The notes beneath the pieces are model-generated. The model did not search any database, was not told the origin of the DNA, and saw nothing but the letters and a program-made list of their open reading frames with translations. Shown in pieces: positions 27,434-54,048 of a stretch of DNA of 64,000 nucleotides. Numbering within the stretch: position 1 is the stretch's first letter; each line of letters starts with the position of its first letter. A program made the translations under genes and the position numbers. The stretch lies in assembly GCA_038845975.1 (NCBI GenBank), contig JAWBQF010000001.1:32733-96732 (forward strand), in the 5' to 3' direction. Origin of the DNA: Candidatus Methanomethylicia archaeon. Lineage in GTDB: Archaea; Thermoproteota; Methanomethylicia; CALHIW01.

Positions 27434-27985
27434 CTATGCCTTCCACCATTTAAATACATAGTAGTTGATTTCTCTTGTTTTTTGATTTATACAAGCTATG
27501 ATAAACTTCTTCTTTACGCTATGGCTTAATCGTCCAGCTCTAACTATTTCGATCGGGTCTATTGTTGTTTCCGGCTGGAATACATGTACTAGAAAGGGGG
27601 CGTGATCTATTCCTGGTCCATATTTGTATACAGCAAATGTTGTTCCGAATTTTAAACCTGGTTTAATTATGTATCCTTTAAGTCTAAGATCCTCATATAC
27701 ATGATATACGTCTCTAAATCTTGTAAACCATTTTTCTGCTCTTTCAATAAGTTCATTACAGCTTAGCTCCCTTTCATCTTCATATATCTTTATGATTTTA
27801 TTTTTACACAGGTAGACGGCTTCAATTAATGATAGTTCTAATGGGGCTCTAAACTCTAAGTCCTTAACCTTTCTAATACCTAGAGGCTTACCATAGAATC
27901 CACTTCTATATAGTCTATTTGCTGCTTCAATATCCCATACTACAACTCTACTTCCTACAAGATCGGCTCTTATCTTTTCAATCAT
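27434..27985 (-). CDS. endA: tRNA-splicing endonuclease, catalytic subunit
   Basis: GLKFGTTFAVY..GPGIDHAP..GRLSHSVKK (Tyr/His/Lys triad); YGKPLGIRKVK loop. Confidence 0.93.
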   Translation of the reverse strand: MIEKIRADLVGSRVVVWDIEAANRLYRSGFYGKPLGIRKVKDLEFRAPLELSLIEAVYLCKNKIIKIYEDERELSCNELIERAEKWFTRFRDVYHVYEDLRLKGYIIKPGLKFGTTFAVYKYGPGIDHAPFLVHVFQPETTIDPIEIVRAGRLSHSVKKKFIIACINQKTREINYYVFKWWKA

Positions 27986-48890: not shown

Positions 48891-49838
48891 ATGAGTTTAT
48901 GGAGACTTAGACTATCCATGATTGGATCGCTTACGCTAATTATAGGTATATCAACGCTTTTTCTAGCATTACTGCTTAGTCTATTAGGCTCATTAACTCT
49001 GTGGTCCCTCATTGGGTTTGTAGTAGTATTTAATATTTTGCAGTGGCTTATTGCACCCTATATTATTAATATTATGTACCATGTTAGAGAAGCTAATCCA
49101 TATGAGCATCGATGGCTTTATGAGGCACTAGATAGAGTTGTTGAGAAGTCAGGATTAGGAAGAACACCTAAACTTATGATTGCAAATCTTCCAATACCTA
49201 ATGCATTTGCTTATGGTAGTCCTCTTACAGGTCCGATGATTGCAATTACATCATCTATGTTAACATCTCTTAGTAGGAGTGAGATTGAAGCTGTTATTGG
49301 ACATGAAGTCGGGCATTTAAAGCATAGAGATGTACAAGTTATGATGTTTGTCTCAATGCTTCCAGCTATAATAGCTATAGCTTCAAGAATACTTTTATTC
49401 TCCGGAGTTTATAGAGATAACCGTAATAAGGGTAGTGCTCTAGCTCTTATTGGAATGATCGGTATGGTTGTTTACTTTATGCTAAGTCTACTTATACTAT
49501 GGTTTAGTAGACAAAGGGAATACTATGCTGATAGACATAGCGTAAATATTGTTGATAATGGCGCATCCAATCTTGCTTTAGCTCTTGCTAAGATATCAAA
49601 TAGTGCGTATAGCTATAAGCTTAGAGGTGGTGACACTACATATTTTGAAGGGTTTAAAACATTATTCATAGCAGATCCATCAGCTGCAAAACCAGTACAA
49701 ATATCCAGTAGGGGTTGGGAGCTTGTTGAGAAAATAGCTTCACGTAAACTATCATTCCTTGACACTTTATCTGAATTGTTCAGTACACATCCACACATAG
49801 TAAAAAGAATAAGAACGTTATTATCATTATCTAAGTAA
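48891..49838 (+). CDS. htpX: HtpX-family M48 zinc protease
   Basis: PNAFAYG, HEVGH, SRQREYYAD and FSTHP motifs. Confidence 0.93.
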   Translation: MSLWRLRLSMIGSLTLIIGISTLFLALLLSLLGSLTLWSLIGFVVVFNILQWLIAPYIINIMYHVREANPYEHRWLYEALDRVVEKSGLGRTPKLMIANLPIPNAFAYGSPLTGPMIAITSSMLTSLSRSEIEAVIGHEVGHLKHRDVQVMMFVSMLPAIIAIASRILLFSGVYRDNRNKGSALALIGMIGMVVYFMLSLLILWFSRQREYYADRHSVNIVDNGASNLALALAKISNSAYSYKLRGGDTTYFEGFKTLFIADPSAAKPVQISSRGWELVEKIASRKLSFLDTLSELFSTHPHIVKRIRTLLSLSK

Positions 49839-50966
49839 TAGTATCATCACTAATGATTTAATACTTAAACCTAAGATGTTTATATATGGTTTAAATTTTG
49901 AATTGATTTTTACTTAGCGAACTTGATAACCAATAGATAAGATATTATATATCATAACCACATTCAATGAGTAGCGCAAAATTCACTATTTAGATTCTGA
50001 TTATAGATTGAAAAATATTCCACTATTTTTTCCATCATTAGTATAGCTAGACCAATACTGTCAAGCTAGTATATAGAGCATGATAATCAGCAACTCAACT
50101 TAAAATATCAATTTATTAGTACCAATATGAAGAATAACACTAAGTTTTCTTAATAAGAGTGAATTTATGAATAAGTCGGCACTCCATGAACTACTATAGT
50201 AAGTATTAAAACTTTCTAAATTCTATAGTGTTTCTCGAATAATTTTAGCAACACTCAATTATTGGAGTATATTAAGATCAAGGCCGTAACCTGGTAAATT
50301 TCACAAAATACTATACTCCATGAAAGATTTCAACATCATGTCTAAGCTAGGTTTTCAAGGATTTTTAACAGTTGTGAAACTTTTAATGTAAACCATAAAC
50401 TATGTCCTAATAGTTAATATTCTGGTATAACCAATATCTAGGTATAAACTTGATATTGTCATAAGCTTAATCAGTCTTATCTAGAACTATAAATTCCCAG
50501 AACTATGATGAGTTTATGCTAATTCTTCTTAACTTGCTAATCTATTTATAACCTTATTGCTTAACACTGTATTTTGTATTATTCATTAAATATTACGATT
50601 ATAAAGATATTGTAGGATATCCTAGACGTGACAACTTAGCATATTGTAGCTTTTTTCTTAAGTTGTCAGTCCCGATTTCCTGTATTTATGTAAATTAGAT
50701 TTATGAATTTTAAATAAGCCATAAAATACCTATATCTTAATAAAGCTCAGAAAGTATTTTATAAATTAGGTGCCCACATTATGTTAAATGTAAATTTTAA
50801 GATTAATTAGAACTCTTGCTTCCCTTAAACATCTAACTCCTTAATTAAACCTAGTACTAACATGAACACATCAGTAATAGTGTCCATACAACCGCTTAAG
50901 TTGCTACATTTAGTTCATTAGTACAAACATTTTTAAGCCTGTCTATAGTATTTCATTAGCCCGGGA

Positions 50967-51072
50967 AGCCCGGTGGAAGTTTACCTGCCGATTGTAGTGG
51001 CCAAGCATAGCGGGCTTTGGAGCTTAGCGAAGAGCCCCGCTGACGGGAGTTCGAATCTCCCCCGGGCTACCA
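50967..51072 (+). tRNA. tRNA-Gln(UUG) with two introns (50977-50992 at position 10/11; 51021-51034 at 37/38), CCA encoded
   Basis: Spliced sequence folds into a full cloverleaf: AGCCCGG/CCGGGCT, GTGT/GCAT, GCGGG/CCCGC, GGGAG-TTCGAAT-CTCCC, A1-U72; BHB motifs at both introns; TATA at 50930. Confidence 0.92.
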
Positions 51073-51149
51073 TAGGTATGTAATATTTGTTAAGTCTTTA
51101 TTTTTAGTTTCTGTTCTAATGATTTTACTTTATTGTATTTCTGTTCTCT

Positions 51150-51700
51150 TCATGTTTTATTATTCTTAATACTACGTTCGTCATTGTGCTGCATCTTTTA
51201 GTTTATTTTGAATTCTTATGAGAATATTTTGAACTTCTAAGCTTGGATATTACATGTTTCACTACCACCCTAGTTTTAGATGGTTTATGATTATGCTCTT
51301 TTATTAATTCTTTGGCTTTCCTACTCTCATGATTCTTCCAGTAATTCTTTTCTTAAGGGTTATGAGGTATCCTATTCCTAAAGTACTTCTTTACTTCTTC
51401 ATACCTAAATTGAAGTATTGTTTGTTGGAGATTAGGCGGCTCATACACATTTTTATATTGTATCTTCTATTTGTAGCATAGGAGGCTTTACGAATGTGAA
51501 GCTATAGTGTTCGCCATGACCTCTGTCTTAACAGTATGCCTTCTCCCGCCAAAGTAATAGATTATTTCTACACTATTTTTCAGTATAAGTATTCCCTGCT
51601 CAGTAGTGTCTATGAAGACCTTAAAGCTTGAAGTAGTCTTCCAACATCACGGTCTTAAGCCTCTTCAGTATCCTCCATATTTTCTAAGTATCGATATACA
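51150..51700 (-). pseudogene. Fragmented IS5-family (ISL2/DDE_Tnp_4-like) transposase; boundaries approximate
   Basis: Minus-strand fragments VFIDTTEQ, YFGGRRHTVKTEV and EHNHKPSKTRVVVKHVISKL. Confidence 0.6.
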
Positions 51701-52106
51701 CTCTTTAACTAGAGAATTAATCATACATGTATCTCTTAACATATTACTATGATCTATGCTAAAACAAGACTTTAGAAGTATAGAAGTAATGTATAATCTG
51801 TAGTACGTTAATAATATCAACAATATTATCTATAAGCTCTAGCCTGAAAGACCTACTAGCTCTAATCCCCTTCTCTTACAACTATACAGTCTAGTAGTCT
51901 CAACTAACCTATATATATAAAAAATTGGACTCTAAATTATCAATCTTTCTGTTAAAAGATAAAGAATAGATATTGTTCTATATAGCGGTTTCCTTGAGGT
52001 ATCTGTAATTTTGCGCTAACAGTAGAGATGTATTCCATAAATGTCTAGCGAGTTTAAATAGGATAAGATAAGAAAGGTGGAAGCTGCATAATAATGGTTA
52101 AGCTTA

Positions 52107-52238
52107 AGCTTTGTGGCTTAATATTCATTTCTCGTAATCTATATCATTAAATACTATGGTTATAGGAATGCTTATTAAGCTTTTTCGTACTTTATGTAAA
52201 CTTGAATTTGCAAAATTTCGGAATTAAGCCACAAAGCA
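52107..52238. mobile_element. MITE of about 131 bp (copy 2, inverted)
   Basis: Reverse complement of 4770-4900, with only a couple of differences seen. Confidence 0.88.
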
Positions 52239-52309
52239 TAAGCTCTGTATAGTTACCATTAGTGATAGCATTAGATTAATGGGACTAGTCAGCTACAAAA
52301 ATCTCACTA

Positions 52310-52660
52310 AAGAGCGTAGGGAGAAAACTCCATTTATTATAGCTTTATGGCGCTTACACATATTTTAGTTTATCTAAATGGCTTAGGTATCCTAGCTTAT
52401 TATTATAGAATGTATCTATGTTATGGTTTAGGTTTTAGGCTATTCGAGTTTGATAGGAGAAATGGTTAAAATTGTTATAGTTAATGATACCATTATGAGT
52501 ATAAGCTCTAGGAAGAAGATTATGTATATTGCATTCTAGCCATTATTGATAGGATTCTCTACATATGGATTTGTGATTTTGCAATACATTTATATCTCTA
52601 CCATTAAAAAGATTAGAGCTGTTTATGGTTCTAGTATAATCGTTTATAGGTGATTACGCT
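52310..52660 (+). mobile_element. Partial, more decayed copy of IS6 family A
   Basis: Shares GGAGAAAACTCCATTTA and TTTGATAGGAG blocks with 63678-64000. Confidence 0.55.
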
Positions 52661-52719
52661 CACTACTATAGATAAATACTTAAATCTGTTAATCTAAACT
52701 TAACTAGTAGTGGAGTATC

Positions 52720-54048
52720 ATGAAGTTTGAAGTTGTTTTAATACTGATTCCACTATTACTAATACCTACACATATACATGTTGATAAGCAATCTCAGATA
52801 GTTGAATTCATATATTTTGAAAAGTTAACAATAGTGAATAATGGGAGTATTCCAGTAGCATTAGAGGATCACTATAGGTATTCTACTTTATTTATCAATA
52901 CGTCTAGCCAGGTATGTTTCCTTATAAACTCTACACCGTCAATAGTAAGATTTTTCAGGGATGAAGATGAAATGTTAAATATTGAGTTTAATATTACAAA
53001 AACTATAAAACCTTACAGTTACGTACAGATGAGTACCACACATAAGATAATAGTATTTAAAAATCCTAAACCACCTGAAAATCTTAATGTTAAAAATTCA
53101 GGCACACTAATGGATATACCGGGAAACTTAAGAAACTACACCACATCAGTTGGCGCATGGGCTTATAACAGTATTTGGATGACTTATCTTAGGGATAAGG
53201 CTTTTGAGCTAAAGGGAGATGATGAAAATGTTTTAAGCATAGTTTTAAAGTTTATAGATTGGATTGGTAGAAATGTAAAATATCCTGAGAAACCACTTGA
53301 GGGCCCACTATACCCAAATGAGACAATACCTAATGAAAAAATTCAGAAAGGCGATCTAGGTATTGGAGACTGTGATGACCAGGCAAGTCTTCTCATCACA
53401 CTATGTAGATCAGTAGGAATTCCAGCATATCTTCAATATGGATGTATCCATTTCAAAAATATGAAGTATTATGAAGACTTTATAAACGGACATATAAAAT
53501 ACCGCTACCACTATATTGGATGGCATGGATGGGCTATCATATATATTCCACCGTGGGGATGGCTACCAGTAGACTTAACATGGGGGTATCTTCTCACTAG
53601 GAATCCAATGGATGCAATAATGAGAGCAGCAGTATATCAATGCTGGGAAGTAGGAATACCAATATTCATACATGGAAACATCATAAATTCAGACCATGTA
53701 AAAATAAATAGGGAAATAAAAATGAAGATAGAAAATAGTTCTATATACATATACATTGACAACATCCTCATACCAGTAGATGAATCATTAAATATAGAAA
53801 TAGAAAAATTACCTAGAATACCACTAATTCAAGAAACCCATACAACAAATACCTATGAGTTCTATACAACTTCTAAGCTAGTAGAGTACAATAATACGAA
53901 ATCTACAGTCTCTAAGCCGGAAGAACAGATCAATACAATGATAATAGTAATACTTTCTATAGCTTTACTAGTATCTCTATACATAGTGTTAAGGAGAAAA
54001 CACTTGAATAGGAATGATTTACAACCAGTAATTAATTCTAAACCTTAA
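52720..54048 (+). CDS. Membrane-anchored transglutaminase-like (Cys-His-Asp) protein
   Basis: Signal peptide; GDCDDQA, HGWA and PVDLTW motifs; C-terminal TM followed by RRK. Confidence 0.85.
   Translation: MKFEVVLILIPLLLIPTHIHVDKQSQIVEFIYFEKLTIVNNGSIPVALEDHYRYSTLFINTSSQVCFLINSTPSIVRFFRDEDEMLNIEFNITKTIKPYSYVQMSTTHKIIVFKNPKPPENLNVKNSGTLMDIPGNLRNYTTSVGAWAYNSIWMTYLRDKAFELKGDDENVLSIVLKFIDWIGRNVKYPEKPLEGPLYPNETIPNEKIQKGDLGIGDCDDQASLLITLCRSVGIPAYLQYGCIHFKNMKYYEDFINGHIKYRYHYIGWHGWAIIYIPPWGWLPVDLTWGYLLTRNPMDAIMRAAVYQCWEVGIPIFIHGNIINSDHVKINREIKMKIENSSIYIYIDNILIPVDESLNIEIEKLPRIPLIQETHTTNTYEFYTTSKLVEYNNTKSTVSKPEEQINTMIIVILSIALLVSLYIVLRRKHLNRNDLQPVINSKP

What the first reader, a model, noticed from the sequence alone, without database searches (positions are those of the whole stretch)
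50958..51072. tRNA-Gln leader duplicates the acceptor strand: a possible placeholder strand that lets a 10/11 intron be spliced
Seen: the gene reads AGCCCGG-GA-AGCCCGG-TG-G[16-nt intron]TGTAG..., and the TATA at 50930 puts the transcription start near the first AGCCCGG. The BHB of the 10/11 intron needs C5-G6-G7-U8 to pair with intronic GCCG (bulges GG^A and AT^T), which is incompatible with a formed acceptor stem. The leader AGCCCGGG is exactly complementary to the 3' acceptor strand CCCGGGCT (8 bp, versus 7 bp for the mature stem). Inference: in the pre-tRNA the leader occupies the 3' acceptor strand and frees nt 1-8 to build the BHB; after splicing, a strand exchange restores the true stem for RNase P. 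This would be a cis-encoded folding switch that orders tRNA maturation. I do not know a described case.
Basis: partly seen in the sequence, partly recalled or inferred. Interest (0 to 1): 0.85.

Follow-up and report, generated by a model that had tools for sequence, protein, structure and literature searches.

The report
Leader decoy strand for tRNA introns
This archaeal tRNA-Gln gene carries, just upstream, a spare copy of the first seven bases of the tRNA that can pair with the tRNA's 3' end, and the same spare strand turns up in many archaea wherever an intron sits near the 5' end of a tRNA, so it looks like a built-in folding aid for splicing.

Summary
Window 50958-51072 is a tRNA-Gln(UUG) gene with a 16-nt intron at 10/11, a 14-nt intron at 37/38, encoded CCA, and a leader copy (AGCCCGG) of the 5' acceptor strand 2 nt upstream.

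The copy is not a local oddity:
- In this genome all 7 tRNA genes with an intron at 3/4 to 10/11 have a G-rich leader that pairs with their own 3' acceptor strand (7 bp in 6, 5 bp in 1). The longest such helix in the 29 other genes is 5 bp.
- Of 71 distinct tRNA-Gln genes with a 10/11 insertion, 66 have a leader helix of at least 6 bp. None of 19 intron-less genes does.
- Bathyarchaeia tRNA-Lys (9/10) and tRNA-Asn (8/9) leaders pair with the 3' strand plus discriminator plus CC, often through G-U wobbles.

Folding models predict that the splice-site helix forms only when the leader is present. They do not predict the return to the true stem after splicing.

There are no RNA data. Six full-text searches found no description of this feature. 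I read it as a cis-encoded surrogate acceptor strand. The pairing is well supported; its purpose is inferred.

The parts
50930..50937 (+). TATA-like box TTTTTAAG, presumed promoter
   Evidence: Sequence. It starts 28 nt before the first copy, the spacing that ordinary tRNA genes of this genome show to their mature 5' end. No transcription start data exist.
50958..50964 (+). Leader copy AGCCCGG of the 5' acceptor strand (surrogate or decoy strand), complementary to 51062-51068
   Evidence: It is conserved in the tRNA-Gln(CUG) paralogue and in the same-genus genome, and in 66 of 71 distinct genes with the 10/11 insertion.
50965..50966 (+). Spacer GA
   Evidence: The spacer is AA in the paralogue and the orthologue. 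Spacer length ranges from 0 to 11 nt (once 18) in other lineages.
50967..50976 (+). Exon 1, mature nt 1-10. Nt 5-8 (CGGU) form the 5' strand of the BHB central helix.
   Evidence: BHB scan and cloverleaf score; intron-less orthologues.
50977..50992 (+). Intron 1, 16 nt, at position 10/11. It ends in GCCG (central helix) followed by AT (3' bulge together with U11).
   Evidence: The ending GCYG plus two nt is conserved in 69 of 71 distinct genes.
50993..51020 (+). Exon 2, mature nt 11-37 (D arm, anticodon stem, anticodon UUG)
51021..51034 (+). Intron 2, 14 nt, at the canonical position 37/38
   Evidence: central helix 4 of 4, outer helix 7 bp, inner helix 2 bp.
51035..51069 (+). Exon 3, mature nt 38-73. 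It includes the T arm and the 3' acceptor strand CCGGGCT (51062-51068), which is the shared partner of the leader copy and of nt 1-7. The discriminator A is at 51069.
51070..51072 (+). Genomically encoded CCA

Best explanation
The leader copy is a cis-encoded surrogate (decoy) acceptor strand. [quoted passage not shown] In a full-length transcript the GC-rich 3' acceptor strand would take that 5' strand away, because a 7-bp stem beats a 4-bp helix.

The leader lies at, or within a few nucleotides of, the transcript's 5' end and offers the 3' strand an equivalent partner. In some lineages this extends to the discriminator and C74 C75. The BHB can then persist, the T arm still stacks on an acceptor-like helix, and the true RNase P site is not presented.

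After cleavage and ligation the real 5' strand must replace the leader, and the leader must be removed.

Status of each step:
- Shown here: the complementarity, its tight co-occurrence with 5'-proximal introns, and its register and wobble variation.
- Modelled: the effect on BHB formation.
- Inferred: the transcription start, the order of splicing and 5' maturation, the strand exchange, and the nuclease that removes the leader.
For: (1) In this genome, 36 tRNA genes were scored. The 7 with an intron at 3/4, 7/8, 9/10 or 10/11 have leader helices to their own 3' strand of 7, 7, 7, 7, 7, 7 and 5 bp. The 29 others reach at most 5 bp (Mann-Whitney p = 2.5e-5, though paralogues are not independent). 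Genes with introns at 13/14 or later have no copy.

(2) Each leader matches its own tRNA:
- AGCCCGG for tRNA-Gln;
- GGGCUCG and GGGCCUG for tRNA-Lys and tRNA-Met;
- GGGGCCG and GGGGCUG for tRNA-Pro;
- GCCGCCG for a Bathyarchaeia tRNA-Asn.

(3) In the same-genus genome, across 4 orthologous pairs, the copies are kept while the spacers change. The Lys spacer goes from GGGGAG to GA, the Pro-UGG spacer from AA to AAGAG, and the Gln spacer from GA to AA. The single change inside a copy (Trp, C to T) keeps a G-U pair.

(4) Of 71 distinct tRNA-Gln genes with a 10/11 insertion, 66 have a helix of at least 6 bp. They come from metagenome contigs of 28-58% GC and from 3 other genomes of the phylum sample. 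Spacers are 0-11 nt. None of 19 distinct intron-less tRNA-Gln genes reaches 6 bp.

(5) Of 17 tRNA-Lys-type genes with a 9/10 intron, mostly Bathyarchaeia, 16 have leaders pairing 7-10 bp with nt 66-75. The wobble variants are GGGUUCG, GGGUCCG and GGGCCUG. In one such genome, the 2 tRNAs with an 8/9 or 9/10 intron have the leader complement and 16 other tRNAs do not.

(6) The leader extensions GGT and GGC are complementary to the discriminator plus CC and are absent from the 5' strand. The partner is therefore the 3' end, and the leader is not merely a DNA duplicate. The GGT extension is seen in 3 of 24 genes that encode CC and in 0 of 38 that do not.

(7) Partition-function folding gives a probability of the BHB central helix of 0.05-0.65 with the native leader at 37 C, against 4e-8 to 2e-4 with the leader removed. 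None of 29 natural leaders from other tRNA genes reaches the native value for any of the 5 genes, at 37 or 70 C. In minimum-free-energy folds the leader pairs with the 3' strand in 5 of 5 genes at 37 C.

(8) Two genes of the tRNA_int_endo family are present, which fits a two-subunit endonuclease that accepts relaxed BHBs.
Against: - No RNA data exist. No RNA run holds the locus, so the transcription start, the intermediates and splicing itself are unobserved.
- After in-silico splicing, the leader helix stays 0.3-6.9 kcal/mol more stable than the true acceptor stem in 4 of 4 genes. The return switch is therefore not explained by secondary structure.
- For the two genes with a 3/4 intron, the model shows no gain from the leader.
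- Composition-preserving shuffles of the G-rich leaders often do as well as the native leader. They reached the native value in 0, 2, 8, 8 and 39 of 60 shuffles at 37 C.
- In short nascent transcripts the leader lowers the predicted BHB probability, because the acceptor sequences are partly palindromic. For tRNA-Gln(UUG) it falls from 0.97 to 0.06.
- Exceptions exist. One tRNA with a 9/10 intron has no leader complement (L078). One tRNA-Gln has a 10-nt leader copy but no intron (L283). The Trp gene here has only 5 bp.
- RNase P RNA was not found with two Rfam models in this 93%-complete genome.
- Many of the compared genes are orthologues of one ancient intron, so the counts overstate the number of independent events. 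About 5 or 6 combinations of tRNA and position are independent.
Confidence: 0.65

Rival explanations
1. The pairing is the same, but the benefit is different. The leader helix mainly serves as a stand-in acceptor stem. It protects or presents the 3' end and keeps the T arm stacked while the 5' strand is busy in the BHB. This could guard against 3' exonucleases, support tRNase Z or CCA handling, or block premature RNase P cleavage. On this reading the BHB would form without it.
For: In Bathyarchaeia and some tRNA-Gln genes the helix extends over the discriminator and C74 C75 of an encoded CCA, burying the 3' end. In nascent-transcript models the BHB forms without the leader. L078 shows that a 9/10 intron can exist without any leader complement.
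Against: In full-length models the BHB helix is populated 100- to 10-million-fold less without the leader. So freeing the 5' strand follows automatically from the same pairing. Sequence alone cannot separate the two benefits.
Confidence: 0.2
2. The copy is a neutral by-product of how 5'-proximal introns arise or of replication slippage. It would be a tandem duplication of the gene's 5' end that is carried along without function.
For: In this gene the two copies form a 9-nt tandem repeat. L283 and L118 show that tandem duplications of tRNA 5' ends do occur.
Against: The copy persists across lineages of 28-58% GC, while spacers vary from 0 to 11 nt and flanks diverge. Changes inside copies are C to U, opposite G. 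Several leaders are complements of nt 67-75, including the discriminator and CC, which a duplication of the 5' strand cannot produce. None of 29 and none of 19 control genes has one.
Confidence: 0.08
3. The gene model is wrong. The upstream copy is the real 5' end of the tRNA, and the second copy lies inside a longer or additional intron.
For: My scoring gives nearly equal cloverleaf scores for both starts in tRNA-Pro(GGG) (25.1 against 25.2) and a lower but acceptable one for tRNA-Lys (24.0 against 25.4).
Against: For tRNA-Gln the second copy is contiguous with U8 G9 G10. Using the first copy would need a 9-nt intron, too short for a BHB, or would lose nt 8-10. In the Lys and Met genes, only the second copy is followed by U8. 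Intron-less orthologues fix the mature sequence.
Confidence: 0.02

Closest known systems
Non-canonical BHB introns of archaeal tRNA genes (positions such as 3/4, 20/21, 29/30, 45/46 in Crenarchaeota and Thaumarchaeota; passages read in PMC4090602 and PMC8450103)
   Same: The 10/11 intron has the 4-bp central helix with two 3-nt bulges. Its removal gives a normal cloverleaf. The genome has two endonuclease-family genes and many other non-canonical introns.
   Different: The passages I read treat the intron and its BHB as self-sufficient. They do not mention a leader element that pairs with the 3' acceptor strand. The tRNAscan-SE 2.0 text has no occurrence of the word 'leader'.
Split and permuted tRNA genes, where complementary leader and trailer sequences anneal to build the BHB (Nanoarchaeum, Caldivirga, Thermofilum, Cyanidioschyzon; passages read in PMC4090602, PMC4033280, PMC3218864)
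   Same: A GC-rich sequence outside the mature tRNA is needed, through base pairing, for endonuclease processing.
   Different: In split and permuted genes the extra sequences pair with each other, form the BHB themselves and are cut off by the endonuclease. Here the leader pairs with a mature part of the tRNA (nt 66-72, up to 75). It is not part of the BHB in the 7/8 to 10/11 cases, and something else must remove it.
5' leader with 3' trailer pairing in bacterial and eukaryotic pre-tRNAs, which extends the acceptor stem and influences RNase P and the order of end processing (recalled, not checked here)
   Same: The leader takes part in a helix at the acceptor end, and that helix is expected to delay 5' maturation.
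   Different: Those leaders pair with the trailer and prolong the true stem. Here the leader replaces the true 5' strand.
Placeholder or chaperone strands in RNA maturation, such as U3 snoRNA holding pre-18S rRNA segments apart, and mutually exclusive helices in attenuators and riboswitches (recalled, not checked here)
   Same: The logic is the same: a temporary partner occupies one strand of a final helix until an earlier step is finished.
   Different: Here the placeholder acts in cis, is 6-10 nt long, sits in a tRNA precursor and is tied to the position of an intron.

Membership tests
Archaeal BHB tRNA intron (non-canonical position) | A 4-bp central helix flanked by two 3-nt bulges on opposite strands, with cleavage after the second bulge nucleotide | tested here: met
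   for the intron at 10/11 the central helix is 4 of 4 (CGGU with GCCG) and the bulges are GG^A and AU^U.
Archaeal BHB tRNA intron (non-canonical position) | Outer helices h and h' on both sides (strict hBHBh') | tested here: not met
   h is 1 bp and h' is 2 bp, so this is a relaxed motif. In other lineages h' is 4-8 bp.
Archaeal BHB tRNA intron (non-canonical position) | Removing the intron restores a canonical cloverleaf identical to intron-less orthologues | tested here: met
   a 73-nt tRNA-Gln(UUG) with all four stems; the same 5' half occurs in 20 intron-less loci.
Archaeal BHB tRNA intron (non-canonical position) | A splicing endonuclease able to cut relaxed or non-canonical BHBs (two-subunit or epsilon type) | tested here: inconclusive
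   two PF01974 genes (99.6 and 60.5 bits; ORFs of 188 and 182 aa). This is compatible with a two-subunit enzyme. Subunit roles and activity were not tested.
Archaeal BHB tRNA intron (non-canonical position) | Splicing observed at the RNA level | not testable with these tools
   no listed run is on record as RNA.
Split or permuted tRNA leader-trailer system | Leader and trailer are complementary to each other and form the BHB at the exon boundary | tested here: not met
   The leader is complementary to mature nt 66-72 (up to 75), not to a trailer. The gene is contiguous and collinear.
Proposed class: surrogate acceptor strand in the leader | A leader segment of at least 6 bp complementary to the gene's own 3' acceptor strand, within about 20 nt of the mature 5' end | tested here: met
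   7 bp, ending 2 nt upstream of nt 1.
Proposed class: surrogate acceptor strand in the leader | Co-occurrence with an intron whose BHB uses the 5' acceptor strand | tested here: met
   (counts are given in the evidence).
Proposed class: surrogate acceptor strand in the leader | The leader is transcribed and pairs with the 3' strand in the unspliced precursor | not testable with these tools
   There is only promoter spacing and folding models.

The most novel reading that the evidence does not exclude
A leader-encoded surrogate acceptor strand is a general and ancient third component of 5'-proximal tRNA introns in Thermoproteota-type archaea, alongside the BHB and the endonuclease. It would enforce splicing before 5'-end maturation, and it would be what allows introns to colonise the acceptor and D region at all.

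This reading makes two predictions:
- the leader is essential for splicing of these precursors;
- a mirror-image trailer element exists for introns that engage the 3' acceptor strand.

It would also give gene finders a new signal for hidden tRNA genes.
Probability: 0.45. Interest if true: 0.9.

Novelty: new variant of a known kind. Interest (0 to 1): 0.8.

Why it matters
Non-canonical tRNA introns are usually described as portable BHB cassettes. How a BHB can form when it must borrow one strand of the most stable helix of the tRNA has not been addressed in the texts I could search.

A conserved leader strand that occupies the orphaned 3' strand would be a simple sequence-encoded answer. It would also tie together transcription start, splicing and 5'-end maturation in one folding pathway.

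It is directly testable with purified endonuclease and with compensatory mutants.

It has practical value too. In this window the gene is invisible to ARAGORN and falls below the Rfam threshold. The leader signal could help annotate such genes in Bathyarchaeia, soil archaea and hot-spring lineages.

Tried and rejected
- **Standard tRNA finders.** ARAGORN in default mode and Rfam at gathering threshold found nothing in the window. ARAGORN with introns allowed found 25 tRNAs in the genome and mislabelled the tRNA-Gln(CUG) gene as His. I therefore wrote a T-arm-anchored scan and a BHB-plus-cloverleaf scorer. The first version timed out.
- **Incomplete tRNA census.** The scorer left several genes unresolved (Met-CAU, Pro-UGG on C10, Trp, Pro-UGG on C43, Glu-CUC). 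I parsed those by eye. About 10 expected tRNAs were not found, so the census is incomplete.
- **RNA evidence.** No RNA holder is listed. Laying contigs of four DNA runs showed only a near-identical strain with one intron change (50978 A>G) and an unchanged leader.
- **Shuffled leaders.** Shuffling the leader is a weak control, because G-rich shuffles still pair with the C-rich 3' strand. I replaced it with swaps of natural leaders.
- **TATA spacing.** The automated scan is unambiguous for only 4 of the 7 special genes. Alternative boxes 27-29 nt from the first copy in the other three were seen by eye only.
- **RNase P.** The RNA was not found with RF00373 or RF02357. Rpp30 is present. This does not show absence.
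- **Integrated element.** No att-like repeat of the tRNA lies in 49800-52800.
- **Genome-collection scan.** Most of the 80 loci listed, out of 119 stretches, were chance matches in GC-rich bacteria. 18 passed my tRNA filter.
- **Phylum sample.** The exact pattern matched 5 of 401 genomes. The pattern is strict, so this is a lower bound.
- **Literature.** Six full-text searches and passages of PMC4090602, PMC4033280, PMC3218864 and PMC8450103 gave no description of a leader copy or placeholder. The intron tables of the tRNAscan-SE 2.0 paper, and of Sugahara 2008 (not held), could list these introns and were not seen.
Full report
**What is in the window**

Window 50958-51072 (+) holds a tRNA-Gln(UUG) gene that standard finders miss. 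ARAGORN finds nothing and Rfam finds nothing at gathering threshold. Only the 3' part scores, at 25.5 bits against a threshold of 29.

Reading the sequence and scoring all BHB-compatible excisions against a cloverleaf gives this gene model:
- exon 1, 50967-50976 (nt 1-10);
- a 16-nt intron, 50977-50992, at 10/11;
- exon 2, 50993-51020;
- a 14-nt canonical intron, 51021-51034, at 37/38;
- exon 3, 51035-51069;
- an encoded CCA, 51070-72.

The spliced sequence has the same 5' half as intron-less tRNA-Gln genes in 20 loci of other families of the same class.

C5-G6-G7-U8 pairs with the intronic GCCG and the bulges are GG^A and AU^U. The flanking helices are weak (h 1 bp, h' 2 bp).

Nine nucleotides upstream of nt 1 lies a second AGCCCGG (50958-64). 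It is complementary to the 3' acceptor strand CCGGGCU (51062-68).

**The copy recurs in this genome**

The window lies in a 2.77-Mb, roughly 32% GC assembly of 76 contigs. The only public runs that hold the locus are labelled hot-spring metagenomes.

A T-arm-anchored scan found a second upstream copy of the 5' strand in several tRNA genes. After resolving gene structures, seven genes have an intron close to the 5' end:

| tRNA | Intron position | Leader element |
|---|---|---|
| Gln-UUG, Gln-CUG | 10/11 | AGCCCGG |
| Lys-UUU | 9/10 | GGGCUCG |
| Met-CAU | 9/10 | GGGCCUG |
| Pro-GGG | 7/8 | GGGGCCG |
| Pro-UGG | 3/4 | GGGGCUG |
| Trp-CCA | 3/4 | GGGCC, partial |

In the two 3/4 cases the BHB central helix (GGUG with CACU) itself uses leader nt -3 to -1, so those precursors must be spliced while the leader is still attached.

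I scored the longest contiguous helix between the 30-nt leader and the gene's own 3' strand. The seven genes give 7, 7, 7, 7, 7, 7 and 5 bp. The 29 other genes give 1-5 bp. Genes with introns at 13/14, in the D loop, or further downstream have no copy.

In four of the seven genes the TATA-like box starts 27-29 nt before the first copy. Clear boxes in ordinary genes start mostly 27-33 nt before the mature end (a crude scan). This suggests, without showing, that transcripts begin at or near the copy.

**Comparison with relatives**

- *Same-genus genome (62% complete), four orthologues.* The copies are retained while the spacers change by indels and substitutions. The one change inside a copy is C to U, opposite G.
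- *Rest of the class.* None of the 60 genomes of other genera among the 62 searched has the tRNA-Gln 10/11 insertion. Their 19 distinct tRNA-Gln leaders pair at most 5 bp.
- *Phylum sample.* The same pattern matched 5 of 401 genomes, including this one and its congener.
- *Combined tRNA-Gln set.* These give 71 distinct genes with 25 nt of upstream sequence, on contigs of 28-58% GC. 66 have a leader helix of at least 6 bp to CCGGGCU and 3 have 5 bp. The two with 4 bp are a match that is not a tRNA (L250) and a 10-nt tandem copy without an intron (L283). Spacers are 0-11 nt, once 18. Two of the contigs are identical to this genome's genes and are not independent.
- *Register-shifted leaders.* Three genes carry GGUAGCC(C/U)G instead. 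It pairs with nt 67-75, including the discriminator and the encoded C74 C75.
- *tRNA-Lys-type genes with a 9/10 insertion.* A scan of the genome collection gave 17 archaeal genes, mostly Bathyarchaeia by record title. 16 have leaders of the form GGCGGG(Y)YYG that pair 7-10 bp with nt 66-75. One AT-rich archaeon (L078) has none.
- *One Bathyarchaeia genome in full.* The two tRNAs with 5'-proximal introns are Lys (9/10) and Asn (8/9, leader GGUGCCGCCG against CGGCGGCGCC). Both have the complement. 16 other tRNAs do not, by the 7-of-7 scan.

The leader is therefore selected to pair with the 3' end. It tracks each tRNA's acceptor sequence, tolerates G-U pairs, and is tied to introns at about 10/11 or earlier. 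The genes fall into perhaps five or six independent combinations of tRNA and position. The large counts mostly reflect orthologues.

**Folding models**

- In minimum-free-energy folds the leader pairs with the 3' strand in 5 of 5 genes at 37 C. Without the leader the normal acceptor stem forms and the BHB helix does not.
- The partition-function probability of the four central BHB pairs is 0.05-0.65 with the native leader at 37 C, and 0.0009-0.38 at 70 C. With the leader removed it is 4e-8 to 2e-4 at 37 C.
- None of 29 natural leaders of other tRNA genes, swapped in, reaches the native value in any of the five genes at either temperature.

Results that run against a simple story:
- Composition-preserving shuffles often perform as well as the native leader. 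They reached the native value in 0, 2, 8, 8 and 39 of 60 shuffles.
- The two genes with a 3/4 intron show no gain from the leader.
- In short nascent transcripts the leader lowers the BHB probability, because the acceptor sequences are partly palindromic.
- After in-silico splicing, the leader helix remains 0.3-6.9 kcal/mol more stable than the true stem in 4 of 4 genes.

These models ignore tertiary structure, modifications and proteins. They also partly restate the complementarity that was observed in the first place.

**Mechanism proposed**

The leader is a surrogate acceptor strand. It takes the 3' strand so that the 5' strand can stay in the BHB. It gives the T arm an acceptor-like helix to stack on, and it hides the true RNase P site. 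The intron is cut by the endonuclease, for which two PF01974 genes exist, one of them in the window at 27434-27985, and the exons are ligated. The real 5' strand then replaces the leader, and the leader is removed.

The last two steps are inferred and unexplained. Rpp30 is present, but no RNase P RNA was detected.

A variant reading puts the main benefit on protecting or presenting the 3' end rather than on BHB formation. Sequence data cannot separate the two. A neutral-duplication origin and a wrong gene model are both disfavoured by the evidence above.

**Novelty**

Non-canonical introns are known, including one at 3/4 in Thermoproteales and those found in Thaumarchaeota. Leader-trailer pairing in split and permuted tRNAs is also known (passages in PMC4090602, PMC4033280, PMC3218864, PMC8450103). 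None of those passages, and none of six full-text searches, mentions a leader that mimics the 5' acceptor strand.

Subscription papers and supplements were not searchable, so prior description cannot be excluded.

I rate this a new variant of a known kind, of high interest. The pairing and its link to 5'-proximal introns are well supported (about 0.9). The proposed purpose is less certain (about 0.65).

Noticed in passing
window 27434-27985 (-): A 183-aa ORF carries a tRNA_int_endo domain (PF01974, 99.6 bits). It is one of two endonuclease-family genes in the genome; the other is at G000:C30:24213-24473. It probably encodes a subunit of the enzyme that cuts these introns.
   Followed up: partly
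window 49839-52719: About 2.9 kb around the tRNA-Gln gene has no ORF of 60 aa or more. There is no Rfam match other than the tRNA fragment, and no att-like repeat of the tRNA. This is unusually long for a compact archaeal genome.
   Followed up: partly
G000, many contigs: The tRNA set is very rich in non-canonical introns. Examples are 24/25 in three tRNA-Val genes, 29/30 in Gly-CCC, 31/32 in Lys-CUU, about 47/48 in both tRNA-Ala genes, and D-loop introns in Pro-CGG, Met-CAU and a second Pro-UGG. Met-CAU has three introns. About 10 expected tRNAs were not found.
   Followed up: partly
G000:C21 (tRNA-Ala UGC) and G000:C34 (tRNA-Ala GGC), leaders: Both tRNA-Ala genes share a GC-rich leader ending in GGTGCTGAGTGAT. 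It is not complementary to the 3' acceptor strand. Its role is unknown.
   Followed up: no
G000:C57, strand -, tRNA at 547-656: This Pro-like tRNA has the anticodon loop CTAGGGA, which would read as anticodon AGG, unusual for archaea. It also seems to have a long insertion in the variable region.
   Followed up: no
L283 (metagenome contig, 41% GC), about 5220: This tRNA-Gln has a 10-nt tandem copy of its 5' end (AGCCCGGTGG twice) and no 10/11 intron. It may be a relic after intron loss, or a duplication that came before intron gain.
   Followed up: partly
L118 (Methanobrevibacter MAG): A 29-nt tandem duplication of the 5' part of a tRNA-Lys-type gene matched my intron pattern, but it is not an intron.
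   Followed up: no
G000 whole genome: No RNase P RNA was found with the archaeal model (RF00373) or the type T model (RF02357), although an Rpp30 homologue is present at C38:1584-2201. Ordinary tRNA genes seem to start transcription at or very near the mature 5' end.
   Followed up: partly
L078 (uncultured archaeon, AT-rich): This tRNA-Lys-type gene has a 21-nt intron at 9/10 with a good BHB but no leader complement. It is the one clear exception among 17 such genes.
   Followed up: partly
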